A stretch of 64,000 bases of DNA, taken from the NCBI RefSeq assembly GCF_009914755.1, contig NC_060947.1, one strand, 5' to 3'. Below the pieces are notes generated by a model. The model saw only the letters and a list, made by a program, of their open reading frames with translations. It searched no databases and had not been told where the DNA came from. Below, piece after piece: positions 59,666 through 64,000 of the stretch. The position numbers were made by a program, and so were the translations under genes. This DNA is from the human T2T-CHM13v2.0 reference genome, Homo sapiens. Positions within the stretch are counted from its first letter, which is position 1. Each line of letters starts with the position of its first letter.

Positions 59666-59916
59666 GCTGTCTGCCTGCGGGGTTGTGGGGTCCCGGCAGC
59701 TCAGAGGGGTGCTAAGTAAGCATCCTTCAGGGCAAGCCCAGCCAACGCAAAACCAGATTCCAGGCAGAGACACAGGCCATGTTAGAATAAAAGTAACAGA
59801 AATCATAAAGCCCCAGTTCAGATGGGAGTTCCCCACGTGACAGCACAGTTAATGGCCACTCATAGGCAAAGAAACTTCAGTAACATCTAGGTGGCATACA
59901 TGAATGCTTAAACTGG

Positions 59917-60124
59917 TGTGTCTCGCCACAGCAAGAACTTCAGGTCTTGTCTTCATTGCTCTTCATCCTCTGCTTCTAGAAGCAGAGCCTTTGTGACCTT
60001 GTGACCTGCAGGTATTGGGAGATCCACAGCGAGGATGCAAGGACCCCCTGGAAGCCTAGAAATGGTATTGCTGTCTCTAAGCAAGACCTGATCACCTGTC
60101 TGGAGCAAGGAAAAGAGCCTTGGA
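59917..60124 (+). pseudogene. Processed fragment of a ZNF91-subfamily KRAB-ZNF mRNA (exon 1 + KRAB-B exon)
   Basis: Exon-1 motif GTGACCTGCAGGTATTGGGAGATCCACAG..ATG CAA GGA CCC CCT GGA AGC CTA GAA ATG (MQGPPGSLEM, compare ZNF91 MPGTPGSLEM), joined at 60064/60065 to KRAB-B sequence GIAVSKQDLITCLEQGKEPW with no intron. Confidence 0.88.
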
Positions 60125-62198
60125 GCAATTCCCCACAGTGCAGCACAGCAGCTGGGACAGTTCGAGGTCAGACTGCTTCTTTAATCGGTACCCCAACCAA
60201 TTCCTCCTCACTGGATGGGGCCTCCCTGTGGGATTTTCGGCATCCCCAACCAAGGGTTTATGGACAGAACTCTGATCTCTCTGAGAGGAGCCCCTATGAG
60301 GAGGGGTGGCCATGGTATCATAAATAAACGATCTTAGTCATTTCTGCCTGCTGGTCCTGGAGAGTCAGGGCAGCCCGGATGAGGGGGATTCACCCCAGCA
60401 CACCACACCCACTCCACCAAGGGGCATCCAGACTGCTTATTTAAGCAGGTCCCTGATCCCGTTCCTCCTAACTGGGTGAGACATCCCAACAGGGGTCTCC
60501 AGACACCTTGTGGAGGAGCGTTCCAGCCAGCATCAGGTTGGTGTCCCTCTGGGACAGAGCTCCCAGAGAAGGGAACAGTTGCCATCTTTGCTGTTCTGCA
60601 GCCTCCACTGATGATACCTTCAGGTGTGGGAGGAACCCAGATGAATAGGGTCTGGAGTGGACCCCCAGCAAACCACAGCAGCCCTATGGAAGAGGGGCCT
60701 GAGTGCTAAAAGAAGAACAAACAAAGTAACAACAACATCATCAATGAAAAAGACCCAACAAAAACCCCATCCCAAGGTCAGCAGCCTCAAAGATCAAAGG
60801 TAGATAAACCCATAAAGATGAGAAAGAATCAATGCAAAAACACTAAAAACTCAAGAAGCCAGAGTGCCTCTTCTACTCCAAATTATCGCAACATGTCTCC
60901 AGCAAGGGCACAAAACTGGGCTGAGGCTGAGATGGATGAATTGACAGAAATAGGCTTCAGAAAATGGGTAATAACAAACTTCACTGAACTAAAAGAGTGC
61001 ACAATGTTCTAATGCATTGCAAAGAAGCTAAGAACCGTGATAAAACATTACAGGATTTGTTAACCAGAATAACCAGTTCAGAGAGGAATATAAATGACCT
61101 TATGGAGCTGAAAAATGCAACACGAGAACTTCACAATGCAAACACAAGTATCAATAGCCCAATACACTAAGCAGAAGAAAGGATATCAGAGCTTGAAGAC
61201 TGTCTTGCTGAAATAAGGCAGGCAGACAAGATTAGGGGAAAAGGAATGAAAATGAACAAACAAAATCTGAGAGAACTATGGGGTTACGTAAAAAGACTGA
61301 ACCTACGACTGATAGGGGTACCTGAAAGAAATGGGGAGAACAGAAGCAAGTTGGAAAACACATTTCAGGATATCATCCAGGAGAACTTCCCCAACCTAGC
61401 AAGACAGGCCAACATTCAAATTCAGGAAATCCAGAGAACTCCAGTAAGATACTCCATGGGAAGATCAACCCCAAGACACATAATTATCAAACTCTCCAAG
61501 GTAGAAATGAAGTAAAAAATATTAAGGGCAGCCAGAGAGAAAGGCCAGGTCACCTATAAAGGGAAGCCCATCAGAATTACAGCAGACATCTCAGTGGAAA
61601 CCCTACAATCCAGAAGAGATTTGGGGCCAATATTCAACATTCATAAAGAAAAAATATTCCAACCTAGAATTTTATTTCTGGCCAAACTAAGCTTCGTAAG
61701 TGAAGGAGAAATGAAATATTTTTCAGACAAGCAAATGCTGAGAGAATTTGTCACCACTAGGCCTGCCTTGCAAGAGCTGCTGAAGGAAGCACTGAATATG
61801 GAAAGTAAAAATGATTACCAGCCACTACAAAAACACACTAAAGTACACAGACCAGTGACACTATGAAGCAACCACATAAACAAGTCTGCAAAATAACCGG
61901 TTGGCATCATGATGACAGGATCAAATTCATACATAACAATATTAACCTTAAATGTAAATGAGCTAAATGCCCCAATTAAAAGACACAGAATGTCAAGCTG
62001 GATAAAGAGTAAAACTCTGTTGATGTGCTGTATGCAAAAGACCCATCTCACATGCAAAGACACACACAGACTCAAAATAAAGTGGTGGAAAATAATTTAC
62101 CAAGCAAATGGAAAATAGAAAAAGCAGGGGTTGCAATCAGAGTTTCTGACAAAATAGACTTTAAGACAACAAAGATTAAAAAAAAAAAAAAAAAAAAA

Positions 62199-62515
62199 GG
62201 CCAGGCACGGTGGTTCATGCCTGTAATCCCTGCACTTTGGGAGGCTGAGGCAGGCAGATCATGAGGTCAGGAGATCGAGACCATTCTGGATAACACGGTG
62301 AAACCCCACCTCTACTAAAAATACAAAAAATTAGCCGGGTGTGGTGGCGGGCACCTGTAGTCCCAGCTACTTGGGAGGCTGAGGCAGGAGAATGGTGTGA
62401 ACCCAGGAGGCGGAGCTTGCAGTGAGCCGAGATCGCGCCACTGCACTCCAGCCTGGGCGACAGAGCGAGACTCGGTCTCAAAAAAAAAAAAAAAAAAAAA
62501 AAAAAACAAAAAAAA
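62199..62515 (+). mobile_element. AluY in L1 ORF2
   Basis: GAGATCGAGACCAT, GGCGGAGCTTGCAGTGAGCCGAGATCGCGCC; long A tail. Confidence 0.95.
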
Positions 62516-62949
62516 GGAAGGGCATCACATAATGGTAATGGGGTCCATTCAACAAGAAGAGCTAACTATCCTAAATATATATGCACCCAATGCAGGAGCA
62601 CCCAGATTCATAAAACAAGTTCTTACAGACCTACAAAGAGACTTAGACTCCCACACAATAATAGTGGGAGAATTTAACACCCCACTGTCAATATTAGACA
62701 GATCACTGAGACAGAAAATTAACAGACATTCAGGACTTGAACTCAGCTCTGGATCAAGTGGGCCTGATAGATATCTACAGGACTCTCTACCCCCAAACAA
62801 CAGAATATACATTCTTGGTGTCACATGAAACTTACTCTAAAATTGATCACATATTTGGAAGTAAACCACTCCTCAGAAAGTGCAAAAGAACTGAAATCAT
62901 AACAAACAGTCTCTCAGACCACAGCACAGTCAAATTAGAACTCAAGATC

Positions 62950-63258
62950 ATTATTATTATTATTATTATTATTTTGAGACAGAGTTTTGCTCTTGTCACC
63001 CAGGCTGGAGTGCAATGGTGCGATCTCGATTCACTGCAACCTCCGCCTCCTGGGTTCAAGCAATTCTCCTGCCTCAGACTCCTGAGTAGCTGGGACAACA
63101 GGTGCCCACCACCACACCCAGCTAATTTTTTTGTATTTTTAATAGAGACTGGAGTTTCACCATATTGGCCAGGCTGGTCTCAAACTCCTGACCTCAGGTA
63201 ATCCTTCCACCTCGGCCTCCCAAAGTGCTGGGATTACAAGTGTGAGCCACCGTGCCTC
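62950..63258 (-). mobile_element. AluSq/Sp-like, antisense, with (AAT)n tail
   Basis: GAGTTTTGCTCTTGT..GGAGTGCAATGG. Confidence 0.92.
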
Positions 63259-64000
63259 GCTCAAAATGACACAGCTACATGAAAATTGAATAAACTGCTC
63301 TTGAATGACTTCTGGGTAAATAACAACATTAAGGCAGAAATCAATAAGTTCTTTGAAACTAATGAGAACAAAGAAATGACCTACCAGAATCTCTGGGACA
63401 CAGCTAAAGCAGTGTTAAGAGGGAAATTTGTAACACTAAATACCCACATCAAAAACCTAGAAACATCTCAAATCTACATCATAACATCACAATTAAAGGA
63501 ACTAGAGAACCAAGAGAAAAAAAAATTAAAAACCCAAAGCTATCAGAAGACAAGAAATAACCAAGCTCAGAGTGGAACTGAAGGAGATAGACACACAAAA
63601 ATTTCCTCCAAAAAAATCAATGAATCCAGAAGCTGGTTTTTGAAAAAATTAATGAAATAAATAGACCACTAGCTAGACTAATAAAGAGGAAAAAAGAGAA
63701 GACTCAAATAAGCAAAATAAAAAATGATAAAGGGGACATCACCACTGAACCCACAGAAATACAAACAACCATCAGAGAATACTATAAACACTTCTATGCA
63801 AATAAGCTAGAAAATCTACAAGAAAAGGATAAATTCCTGGACCTATACACCCTCTCAAGACTGAACCAGGAAAAAGTTGAATCTCTGAATAGACCAATAA
63901 CGAGTTCTGAAATTGAGGCAGCAATGAATAGCCTACCAGCCAAAAAAAAGTCCAGGATCAGATGGATTCACAGCTGAATTATACCAGTGGTAGAAAGATG

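What the first reader, a model, noticed from the sequence alone, without database searches (positions are those of the whole stretch)
59666..64000. KRAB-ZNF mRNA fused to the 5' end of an L1: a host-repressor/L1 chimeric retro-insertion
Seen: an older L1 ORF2 breaks at an A-rich site (ACAAAAATAAAAATA, 59651-59665). It is followed by ~250 bp of non-repeat-looking sequence, then ZNF91-family exon 1, then intronless KRAB-B sequence. At ~60125 this switches abruptly to an L1 5'UTR that continues into ORF1 and ORF2, all in the same orientation. Known: ZNF91-subfamily KRAB-ZFPs repress retroelements (ZNF91 on SVA, ZNF93 on L1PA), and L1 lineages have repeatedly acquired new 5' ends. Inference: this is one retrotransposed unit in which a KZFP transcript replaces the L1 5' tip. 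It could have formed by RT template switching, or by 5' transduction from a source L1 lying inside or downstream of a ZNF gene and transcribed from the ZNF promoter. If several copies share the junction, it would be an L1 sub-lineage that captured a KZFP 5' end.
Basis: partly seen in the sequence, partly recalled or inferred. Interest (0 to 1): 0.85.

Follow-up and report, generated by a model that had tools for sequence, protein, structure and literature searches.

The report
Three-part gene–ZNF–L1 chimeric retro-insertion
An ancient jumping-gene (L1) copy on the human X chromosome was pasted in together with spliced pieces of two unrelated host messenger RNAs, one from a KRAB zinc-finger gene, which is a rare but already described kind of accident and exists here as a single dead copy.

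Summary
At 59666 an older L1 ORF2 is interrupted. What follows is one unit flanked by a target-site duplication, about 6.96 kb long and running 2.6 kb past the window.

The unit has three parts, not two:
- 59667-59914: a spliced 5' fragment of a chr2 gene (exon 1 plus part of a downstream exon 11.7 kb away). The gene is probably TSGA10; that name is recalled, not shown.
- 59917-60124: a ZNF91-family mRNA from its transcription start through exon 1, with the KRAB-A exon skipped, plus the first 60 nt of the KRAB-B exon.
- 60122 onward: an L1 that lacks the first ~690 nt of its family's 5'UTR.

Untemplated G/GG sits at the 5' ends of both mRNA pieces. The ZNF|L1 join has a 3-nt microhomology (GGA). 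No internal poly(A) is present.

No other locus in T2T-CHM13 shares the junction, so this is not an L1 sub-lineage.

Best reading: one L1 retrotransposition event about 35-55 Myr ago, with template jumps. The main rival is prior capture of a ZNF promoter by a truncated L1.

The class is in print (Law & Burns 2026). This locus is not among their 17.

Unexpected by-product: 7 of 15 dispersed ZNF91-family exon-1 copies examined are fused to L1s, each with a different junction.

The parts
59236..59665 (+). Left part of the older host L1 (ORF2 fragment) into which the chimera inserted
   Evidence: Aligns at 73% to the younger L1's ORF2 (window 63328-63765). The right part resumes outside the window at extended coordinate 66633.
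59651..59665 (+). Upstream copy of the target-site duplication (A-rich)
   Evidence: 13 of 15 nt identical to the 15 nt directly after the L1 3' end (extended 66629-66643 = L061 2629-2643). Host L1 colinearity shows a 9-15 nt overlap.
59666..59666 (+). Single G not templated by the host L1 or by the chr2 parent (chr2 has T here)
   Evidence: Alignment. Reading it as a cap-derived extra G is inference.
59667..59871 (+). cDNA of exon 1 of a chr2 minus-strand gene (probably TSGA10)
   Evidence: 76% match to G000:C2:99613564-99613756 (-), which is followed by a GT donor in chr2. 10 of 34 mismatches are parental CpG to TpG/CpA, and CpG count falls from 14 to 4. A lipoyl-ligase ORF (Pfam LplA-B_cat) lies 7-8 kb away head-to-head. 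The gene name is recalled.
59872..59914 (+). cDNA of part of a downstream exon of the same chr2 gene, with the 11.7-kb intron removed; it ends inside the exon
   Evidence: 88% match of window 59867-59914 to G000:C2:99601784-99601831 (-). The exact exon-exon boundary is ambiguous by about 5 nt, and the present-day human acceptor dinucleotide is not AG.
59915..59916 (+). GG templated neither by the chr2 exon (TT follows there) nor by ZNF91-family promoters (TT there)
   Evidence: Reading it as cap-derived extra G is inference.
59917..60064 (+). ZNF91-family exon 1 (5'UTR and ATG), beginning where homology to the family's conserved promoter stops
   Evidence: 32 clustered chr19/chr7 gene loci match at 77-84%. 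In those loci a conserved CCAAT-box promoter lies upstream, and the window does not share it.
60065..60124 (+). First 60 nt of the KRAB-B exon, spliced directly to exon 1 (KRAB-A exon skipped), broken mid-exon
   Evidence: 35 of 40 scored hits cover only this part at 88-98%. Translation. Exon order from the chr9 and chr12 processed pseudogenes and Pfam KRAB.
60122..60124 (+). GGA microhomology shared by the ZNF exon and the L1 5'UTR at the join
   Evidence: ZNF hits end at query position 59 and L1 hits start at 57. 28 L1 copies aligned.
60122..60817 (+). 3' half (~700 nt) of the L1 5'UTR; the first ~690 nt of the family 5'UTR are absent
   Evidence: The 28 other copies carry related sequence upstream of this point (by eye; by alignment, fewest partners for L016, L022, L024 and L029). 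That similarity reaches 631-710 nt in 19 of 28 copies.
60818..61866 (+). L1 ORF1, decayed (several stops)
   Evidence: Pfam Tnp_22_trimer, Transposase_22 and Tnp_22_dsRBD on the 61171-61863 pieces. ORF list.
61909..64000 (+). L1 ORF2, decayed; continues beyond the window to the L1 3' end at extended coordinate ~66628
   Evidence: ORF list. Sequence of L061. Alignments.
62199..62515 (+). Later Alu insertion inside the L1
   Evidence: Read directly from the sequence. Recognised as Alu from memory.
62949..63262 (-). Second later Alu insertion inside the L1 (antisense)
   Evidence: Read directly from the sequence. Recognised as Alu from memory.

Best explanation
This is a single L1-driven (target-primed reverse transcription) insertion into the ORF2 of an older L1, roughly 35-55 Myr ago. 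The inserted cDNA was copied from three RNAs in succession.

Proposed sequence of events:
1. The reverse transcriptase started at the 3' end of an L1 RNA and copied the 3'UTR, ORF2, ORF1 and the 3' half of the 5'UTR.
2. About 690 nt before the L1 5' end it left that template. It resumed inside the KRAB-B exon of a ZNF91-family mRNA (the exon-2-skipped isoform) at a 3-nt GGA microhomology.
3. It ran to the capped 5' end of the ZNF mRNA and added GG.
4. It jumped again into a downstream exon of a chr2 mRNA (probably the testis gene TSGA10) and ran through its exon 1 to the 5' end, adding one G.
5. The cDNA was then joined to the target, leaving a 13-15 nt duplication.

Shown: the three-part anatomy, the splicing of both mRNA pieces, the start of both pieces at or near their gene's 5' end, the single flanking duplication, the absence of internal poly(A), and single-copy status.

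Inferred: the order and nature of the jumps, and the cap origin of the extra Gs.

Odds: about 0.9 that this is one chimeric event. Within that, about 0.5 that both joins are template jumps, and about 0.35 for the promoter-capture rival for the ZNF|L1 join. The insert carries no ZNF promoter and only half an L1 5'UTR. It left no detectable progeny and has since decayed.
For: - TSD and colinear resumption of the host L1 around the whole block.
- The leader maps to two collinear chr2 segments 11.7 kb apart on the same strand. The first is followed by GT in chr2.
- CpG decay runs from chr2 to the window, with 10 of 34 mismatches of that type.
- The ZNF piece begins exactly where 26 of 28 aligned family loci lose similarity to the window, while the gene copies keep a shared CCAAT-box promoter among themselves.
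- GG and G at the two 5' ends are templated by neither neighbour.
- The ZNF|L1 break is mid-exon and mid-5'UTR, with a GGA overlap and no GT/AG that could make it a splice.
- No A-run at either internal join.
- Published precedent: a tripartite chimeric pseudogene in Magnaporthe, read by its authors as double template jumps (PMC2104539; title and start of abstract seen).
- G-rich 5' untemplated nucleotides are tabulated for human mRNA::L1 chimeras in Law & Burns Table S5.
Against: - Jumping from an internal L1 position into an internal mRNA position is less typical than end-to-end jumping (recalled knowledge).
- ZNF91-family mRNAs are not abundant, so a random RNA partner being a ZNF is a priori unlikely.
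- Six other ZNF91-family::L1 fusions suggest a cis relationship between L1s and these genes. That favours the rival for the ZNF|L1 join.
- The TSD is A-rich and low-complexity (13 of 15), and the L1 poly(A) is nearly gone.
- The acceptor of the second chr2 exon is not AG in today's human sequence.
- No orthologous empty site could be examined.
Confidence: 0.5

Rival explanations
1. Promoter capture plus one jump. A 5'-truncated L1 (lacking ~690 nt of 5'UTR, with intact ORFs) had inserted in sense orientation into the KRAB-B exon of a ZNF91-family gene or gene copy. It was transcribed from the ZNF promoter as one spliced RNA (exon 1, exon 2 skipped, part of exon 3, then L1), and that RNA retrotransposed in cis. 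Only the outermost chr2 piece was added by a template jump at the cap. The GGA would then be the microhomology of the original truncated insertion.
For: - Six other dispersed ZNF91-family exon-1 copies are fused to L1s in the same orientation.
- One of them carries 78 nt of ZNF intron 1 behind an AG acceptor, so it came from an intronic source L1.
- Law & Burns 2026 document promoter co-option by a 5'-compromised L1 in RAP1GDS1 and list a ZNF681::L1 chimera (sections 13-14 and Table S5).
- The ZNF piece starts at the transcription start with extra GG, as a capped chimeric RNA would.
- Microhomology at 5' junctions of truncated L1 insertions is common (recalled).
Against: - No locus in T2T-CHM13 has this L1 family abutting a KRAB-B exon: besides the window itself, 0 of the 39 other scored hits span the junction, with 40 of 192 candidates scored.
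- The exon is a very small target.
- Unlike the other six fusions, the ZNF part here does not end at an exon boundary.
- Only one offspring exists.
Confidence: 0.35
2. Independent events. The mRNA pieces and the L1 arrived separately (nested insertions), or a later deletion or rearrangement brought them together.
For: The region is old and decayed, the TSD is low-complexity, and nested insertions are common in this window (two Alus inside the L1).
Against: - Neither mRNA piece has a poly(A), a 3' exon or its own TSD.
- Both are 5' fragments in the same orientation as the L1.
- The rest of the ZNF transcript does not reappear after the L1 3' end; the host L1 resumes there directly.
- Three separate precise head-to-tail joins by chance are very unlikely.
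Confidence: 0.05
3. Member or founder of an L1 sub-lineage that replaced its 5' end with a KZFP 5' exon and amplified.
For: L1 lineages have repeatedly acquired unrelated 5'UTRs (recalled: Khan et al. 2006, not read here). Law & Burns discuss chimeras as a possible driver (section list seen).
Against: - Whole-genome searches with the full region and with a junction-centred query find only the window itself spanning the join (40 of 816 candidates scored; 40 of 192 scored). Spanning copies would have ranked first.
- The captured piece lacks the ZNF promoter.
Confidence: 0.03

Closest known systems
mRNA/lncRNA::LINE-1 5' chimeric insertions (Law & Burns, Cell Genomics 2026, PMC13174262; sections 13-14 and Table S5 read)
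   Same: - A spliced 5' exon piece of a host gene lies in sense orientation directly upstream of a near-full-length L1.
- One TSD pair surrounds the whole unit.
- Short untemplated G-rich nucleotides sit at the 5' end.
- Their table includes a ZNF91-family case (ZNF681, hg38 chr3:94.44 Mb).
   Different: - This locus is not among their 17.
- It carries two different host mRNAs in tandem.
- The join to the L1 is mid-exon with microhomology, not at a splice donor.
- The L1 lacks ~690 nt of 5'UTR.
Chimeric retrogenes made by L1 RT template switching (Buzdin and co-workers, recalled; the Magnaporthe tripartite case PMC2104539, only title and start of abstract seen)
   Same: cDNA copies of different transcripts are fused head to tail in one orientation, inside one TSD, with poly(A) only at the 3' end. 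A tripartite structure is read as double jumps.
   Different: - In the classic human cases the 5' partner is usually a full small RNA (U6 and similar) and the L1 part is a short 3' fragment (recalled).
- Here the L1 is nearly full length and both 5' partners are 5' fragments of spliced mRNAs.
RAP1GDS1/L1PA2 promoter co-option (Law & Burns 2026, section 14 read)
   Same: A 5'-compromised L1 combined with host 5' exons that begin at the gene's start.
   Different: - There a source element in the gene's intron and four offspring copies are known, and the join involves a splice donor and a cryptic acceptor.
- Here there is no source, one copy, and a non-splice join.
ZNF91-family processed pseudogenes (found here on chr9, chr11, chr12, chr22, chr8)
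   Same: Intronless exon 1 joined to later exons. The exon-2-skipped isoform is also seen in the chr11 and chr3 copies.
   Different: The window copy stops 60 nt into the KRAB-B exon, has no zinc-finger exon, and has no poly(A) or TSD of its own.

Membership tests
L1-mediated chimeric retro-insertion (mRNA::L1 chimera) | cDNAs of unrelated transcripts fused in the same orientation | tested here: met
   A chr2 gene piece, a ZNF91-family piece and an L1, all on the + strand.
L1-mediated chimeric retro-insertion (mRNA::L1 chimera) | One target-site duplication flanking the whole chimera | tested here: met
   59651-59665 against extended 66629-66643, 13 of 15 identical. The host L1 ORF2 is colinear across the insert with a 9-nt overlap in reference coordinates. 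Caveat: the sequence is A-rich.
L1-mediated chimeric retro-insertion (mRNA::L1 chimera) | Poly(A) only at the 3' end, none at internal joins | tested here: met
   No A-run at 59914/59917 or at 60124. The 3' tail is reduced to a few A's merging with the TSD.
L1-mediated chimeric retro-insertion (mRNA::L1 chimera) | L1 endonuclease-type target (TT/AAAA-like) | tested here: inconclusive
   The TSD begins in an A-run preceded by CC/AC rather than TT. The boundary is uncertain by 2 nt.
L1-mediated chimeric retro-insertion (mRNA::L1 chimera) | All parts arrive at the same time in the species tree | not testable with these tools
   No other primate genomes or alignments were available.
5' transduction / promoter co-option from an intragenic source L1 | Host piece ends at a splice donor or includes the source element's genomic flank | tested here: not met
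   The break is mid-exon, 60 nt into the KRAB-B exon, with no GT at the break.
5' transduction / promoter co-option from an intragenic source L1 | Source element identifiable in the donor gene | tested here: not met
   No second locus spans the junction in T2T-CHM13. Loss of the source allele cannot be excluded.
L1 subfamily with a replaced 5' end | Several copies share the same junction | tested here: not met
   Only the window spans the junction (1 of 40 scored hits; 1 of 40).
ZNF91-subfamily KRAB-ZNF transcript (origin of 59917-60124) | Exon 1 and KRAB-B exon homologous to the clustered chr19p12/chr7q11 genes | tested here: met
   26 chr19 and 6 chr7 loci for exon 1. 35 KRAB-B hits at 88-98%. 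KRAB Pfam hit on the neighbouring exon of the chr9 retrocopy. Family and cluster names are recalled. The individual parent gene cannot be assigned.
TSGA10 transcript (origin of 59667-59914) | Maps to TSGA10 exons | tested here: inconclusive
   Maps to two collinear minus-strand chr2 segments head-to-head with a LIPT1-like lipoyl-ligase ORF. TSGA10, C2orf15 and LIPT1 are listed as one chr2 locus in PMC11814315 (passage seen). No annotation was available, and the exact gene order is recalled.

The most novel reading that the evidence does not exclude
ZNF91-family KZFP genes were a recurrent partner or launch pad for L1 over tens of millions of years.

- Of 15 dispersed exon-1 copies examined, 7 (including the window) are fused upstream of an L1 in the same orientation.
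- Each has a different junction and spacer.
- The L1 partners range from old families to young L1PA.
- Six of the seven end at an exon boundary.
- One more case (ZNF681) is published, in a genome-wide catalogue of only 17 mRNA::L1 chimeras.

If this excess over other gene families is real, it has a clear implication. L1s that land in the genes of the repressor family that targets retroelements repeatedly used those genes' germline- or embryo-active promoters and splice donors to be expressed and copied. That would be a route around promoter-directed silencing.
Probability: 0.4. Interest if true: 0.7.

Novelty: new member of a known kind. Interest (0 to 1): 0.45.

Why it matters
On its own the locus is a fossil and a one-off by-product of L1 reverse transcription. 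It has no sign of function or progeny.

Its value is as a clean natural example. It has three templates, two untemplated G additions and one microhomology join, which together show what the L1 enzyme can stitch together in the germline. It also shows that the published catalogue of such chimeras (17 loci) is incomplete for old insertions.

The wider pattern found along the way matters more if it survives a controlled census. ZNF91-family 5' exons fused to L1s occur at seven or more independent sites. That would link the KZFP gene clusters and L1 mechanically as well as through repression: L1s transcribed and spliced from KZFP promoters.

This is directly testable with primate alignments and with long-read RNA from testis or pluripotent cells.

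Tried and rejected
1. Looked for further copies of the ZNF|L1 junction, with the whole region and a junction-centred 115-nt query. None found, so the sub-lineage idea was dropped.

2. Considered splicing as the origin of the ZNF|L1 join. Rejected because there is no GT after the break in the ZNF exon. Some L1 copies do have AG before the GGAGC at the break point, but the donor side fails.

3. Tested the leader as a repeat or as ZNF promoter. Rejected. It has only two genomic matches, both on chr2, and the conserved family promoter is different.

4. Tried to classify all 11 newly found dispersed exon-1 loci and to fetch L1 3' ends for TSD checks of the other fusions.
   - A smaller request gave 520 nt for 8 loci.
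   - chr10:80.40, chr10:81.10 and chr17:5.09 Mb were never examined.
   - The TSDs of the other fusions remain unchecked.

5. Pattern search for a second TSD copy of the chr6 fusion. No hit near it within 1 mismatch, and the 2-mismatch list was truncated. Inconclusive.

6. Pfam on short N-terminal ORF1 pieces of the chr3:143.35 and chr4:169.30 elements gave nothing. Their L1 identity rests on DNA alignment to other L1s.

7. The chr6:66.08 Mb copy looks L1-fused by eye, but no alignment supports it. It is counted only as possible.

8. The L1 subfamily could not be named, because no Dfam/RepeatMasker library was available.

10. Literature searches:
   - 'ZNF91 + LINE-1 + chimeric + transduction': 30 papers, 12 listed. 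By title and abstract start, none is about such fusions.
   - 'chimeric retrogenes / template switching / LINE-1' and '5 transduction / LINE-1 / first exon / retrotransposition' led to Law & Burns.
   - PDF supplements of that paper could not be read.
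Full report
**What is there**

The window is human chrX (T2T-CHM13). Reading 59000-64000 and the 10 kb beyond the window (L061) shows an older L1 ORF2 fragment on the + strand that stops at 59665.
- When both host flanks are aligned to the younger L1's own ORF2 as a ruler, the left flank ends at reference position 63765.
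- The right flank, starting at extended coordinate 66633, begins at reference 63757.
- The host is therefore colinear across a 6.96-kb insert.
- The 15 nt before the insert (59651-59665) recur directly after the insert's L1 3' end, with 13 of 15 identical.
- This is the only duplication in the structure, and it encloses everything from 59666 to about 66628.

**The L1 part**

A whole-genome search with 59666-60300 scored 40 of 816 candidates.
- 37 of the 40 are L1 5'UTR copies (76-86% identity in the search).
- Their alignment to the window begins at 60119-60129.
- Those copies do not end there. The 28 fetched copies carry mutually related sequence upstream of that point (by eye).
- In 19 of 28 this shared upstream part is 631-710 nt long. 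The other 9 are shorter or more diverged.
- The window's L1 therefore lacks about 690 nt of its family's 5'UTR.
- The remaining 5'UTR (about 700 nt), ORF1 and ORF2 follow. ORF1 shows the Pfam L1 ORF1 domains. All are decayed by stops and interrupted by two Alus.
- Median identity to the 28 copies over about 580 nt is 79.7% (range 72.6-83.0). That gives about 0.12 substitutions per site per lineage.
- With a recalled neutral rate this is roughly 35-55 Myr. CpG content inflates the figure.
- I could not name the subfamily.

**The ZNF part**

- Window 59917-60066 matches 26 loci in chr19 20-24 Mb and 6 in chr7 65-66 Mb at 77-84%, plus six dispersed loci (40 of 177 candidates scored).
- Aligning the gene loci shows a conserved promoter with a CCAAT box about 60 nt upstream.
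- The window shares nothing with that promoter. Similarity starts at 59917.
- The piece therefore begins at the family's transcription start.
- Exon 1 ends at 60064 and is joined directly to 60065-60124.
- That segment matches the next-but-one exon of the family at 88-98% in 35 of 40 scored hits.
- It reads IAVSKQDLITCLEQGKEPW.
- In the chr9 and chr12 processed pseudogenes a 127-nt exon lies between these two.
- That exon encodes the Pfam KRAB box, and the window's 19 residues correspond to the stretch just after it.
- So the KRAB-A exon is skipped. The chr11 and chr3 retrocopies show the same isoform.
- The ZNF sequence breaks off mid-exon.

**The ZNF|L1 join**

- In the junction-centred search, KRAB-B hits cover query positions 1-59 and L1 hits start at 57.
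- The three shared bases are GGA at 60122-60124.
- Nothing except the window spans the join (40 of 192 candidates scored).
- There is no GT at the break, so it is not a splice.

**The leader is a third RNA**

Searched alone, 59666-59916 has three genomic matches: itself and two on chr2.
- Positions 2-206 match chr2:99613564-99613756 (minus strand, 76%).
- Positions 202-249 match chr2:99601784-99601831 (minus strand, 88%).
- The two chr2 segments are collinear, on the same strand and 11.7 kb apart.
- The first is followed by GT in chr2.
- It is CpG-rich there (14 CpG) and decayed in the window (4 CpG). Of 34 mismatches, 10 are CpG to TpG/CpA.
- So chr2 is the parent and the window holds a spliced cDNA copy.
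- Seven to eight kb away on the other strand lies a 394-codon ORF with a lipoyl-ligase catalytic domain.
- That fits LIPT1, which a GWAS table lists in one locus with C2orf15 and TSGA10 (passage in PMC11814315).
- From recalled gene order, the minus-strand gene head-to-head with it is the testis gene TSGA10. I could not check an annotation.
- The acceptor of the second exon is not AG in today's sequence, and the boundary is ambiguous by a few bases.
- The second exon piece stops inside the exon.
- It is followed by GG (59915-59916), which neither chr2 (TT) nor the ZNF promoters (TT) would template.
- A single unmatched G also precedes the chr2 piece at 59666.

**How it most likely formed**

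The key features are:
- three cDNAs head to tail in one orientation;
- both host pieces are 5' fragments that start at or near their gene's 5' end with extra G;
- there is no internal poly(A);
- one TSD surrounds the lot.

These are the marks of a single L1-mediated insertion of a composite cDNA.

*The outer join.* The chr2 exon, the GG and the ZNF start can hardly be anything but a reverse-transcriptase jump from the capped end of one RNA into another.

*The ZNF|L1 join.* Two routes remain.
- (a) A second jump, from inside the L1 5'UTR into the ZNF exon at the GGA. A tripartite pseudogene read as double jumps is in print for a fungal LINE (PMC2104539; title and abstract start seen).
- (b) The ZNF-L1 RNA already existed, because a 5'-truncated L1 sat in the KRAB-B exon of a ZNF91-family gene and was transcribed from its promoter. 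Law & Burns showed this kind of promoter co-option for a crippled L1 in RAP1GDS1 (section 14 read).

Against (a): an internal-to-internal jump is needed, and a ZNF mRNA is an unlikely random partner. Against (b): no source locus exists in this genome, the exon is a small target, and there is one offspring only. I put (a) at about 0.5 and (b) at about 0.35, with about 0.9 on a single event overall.

*Other readings.* Separate nested insertions or later rearrangement (0.05) would need three precise same-strand joins and leave no trace of the missing 3' parts. The host L1 resumes directly after the L1 tail. An amplifying sub-lineage (0.03) is excluded for human by the junction searches. It is also implausible because the captured piece carries no ZNF promoter.

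**Comparison with what is known**

Law & Burns (Cell Genomics 2026; sections 13-14 and all of Table S5 read) catalogue 17 mRNA/lncRNA::L1 5' chimeras in hg38.
- Shared features: sense orientation, start at the gene's first exons, near-full-length L1s, TSDs, and short untemplated G-rich 5' additions.
- One of the 17 is ZNF681 exon 1 fused to an L1 on chr3.
- None is at this chrX locus, and none involves TSGA10. A term search of their four spreadsheet supplements found ZNF once and TSGA10 not at all. PDF supplements were not readable.
- The window is therefore a new member of a described kind.
- It is unusual in carrying two host mRNAs and in having a non-splice, microhomology join to a 5'-truncated L1.

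**By-product: many ZNF91-family::L1 fusions**

A 30-mer of exon 1 has 57 hits within 3 mismatches (0 for the reversed control). 41 lie in the chr19/chr7 clusters and 16 are dispersed. With chr11 and chr3:143.35, that makes 18 dispersed loci. I examined 15.

Seven of the 15 are followed on the same strand by an L1, supported by alignment:

| Locus | Structure |
|---|---|
| window (chrX) | described above |
| chr6:25.07 Mb | exon 1 + 78 nt of ZNF intron 1 lying behind an AG acceptor in the paralogous genes + a canonical L1PA 5' end |
| chr4:155.45 Mb | exon 1 + 27 nt + an L1 with a Pfam ORF1 domain |
| chr3:143.35 Mb | exons 1 and 3 complete + about 30 nt + an L1 5' end |
| chr4:169.30 Mb | exon 1 + about 60 nt + an internal L1 5'UTR/ORF1 start |
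| chr8:41.50 Mb | exon 1 + 55 nt + a young L1PA 5' end (96-99% to other copies) |
| chr3:7.25 Mb | exon 1 + about 18 nt + an L1 5' end joined to ORF2 |

The remaining eight:
- One more (chr6:66.08 Mb) looks L1-fused by eye only.
- Six continue into ZNF exons as ordinary retrocopies.
- One is unclassified.

All junctions differ, and no junction has a second copy. Outside the window, the ZNF part always ends at an exon boundary, which points to splicing onto L1-containing transcripts.

Three things were not done. I examined no control gene family. I did not see the three remaining loci.

**Verdict**

- The 'non-repeat' leader is a second host mRNA.
- The L1 is truncated by about 690 nt.
- There is no sub-lineage.
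- The kind is already described and the instance is new.
- The recurrent involvement of ZNF91-family 5' exons is the part worth following up.

Noticed in passing
L039 (G000:C6:25071064-25074218), locus 1508-3155: ZNF91-family exon 1 + 78 nt + a full-length L1PA-type element. The 78 nt match intron 1 of several chr19/chr7 family genes about 1-1.6 kb downstream of exon 1, where an AG precedes them. This looks like a spliced 5' transduction from an intronic source L1 that is no longer present in the human paralogues.
   Followed up: partly
L046 (chr4:155.45 Mb, minus), L059 (chr3:143.35 Mb), L086 (chr4:169.30 Mb), L087 (chr8:41.50 Mb), L091 (chr3:7.25 Mb), L092 (chr6:66.08 Mb): Further dispersed ZNF91-family exon-1 copies (exon 1 plus exon 3 in L059). 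Each stops at an exon boundary and continues, after 18-60 nt of unmatched spacer, into an L1 on the same strand. All spacers differ. L092 is supported by eye only. TSDs were not checked.
   Followed up: partly
L032 (chr11:63.46 Mb) and L059 (chr3:143.35 Mb); L090 (chr22:17.53 Mb): Retrocopies record alternative ZNF91-family isoforms. The KRAB-A exon is skipped in the chr11 and chr3 copies (as in the window), and the KRAB-B exon is skipped in the chr22 copy.
   Followed up: no
Their nature is unknown.
   Followed up: no
G000:C10:80402005, C10:81096500, C17:5086880: Three more hits of the exon-1 30-mer outside the gene clusters. The two chr10 hits are identical in the 30-mer and on opposite strands, which suggests a duplicated segment. 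They were never fetched.
   Followed up: no
window 62199-62515 (+) and 62949-63262 (-): Two Alu elements inserted into the chimera's L1 after its arrival. The second is preceded by an (ATT)n run.
   Followed up: no
L039 locus 1481-1507 versus window 59910-59916: Both chimeras have the 7-mer AAACTGG immediately before the ZNF start. The GG may be cap-derived in both, and the AAACT is probably coincidence.
   Followed up: no
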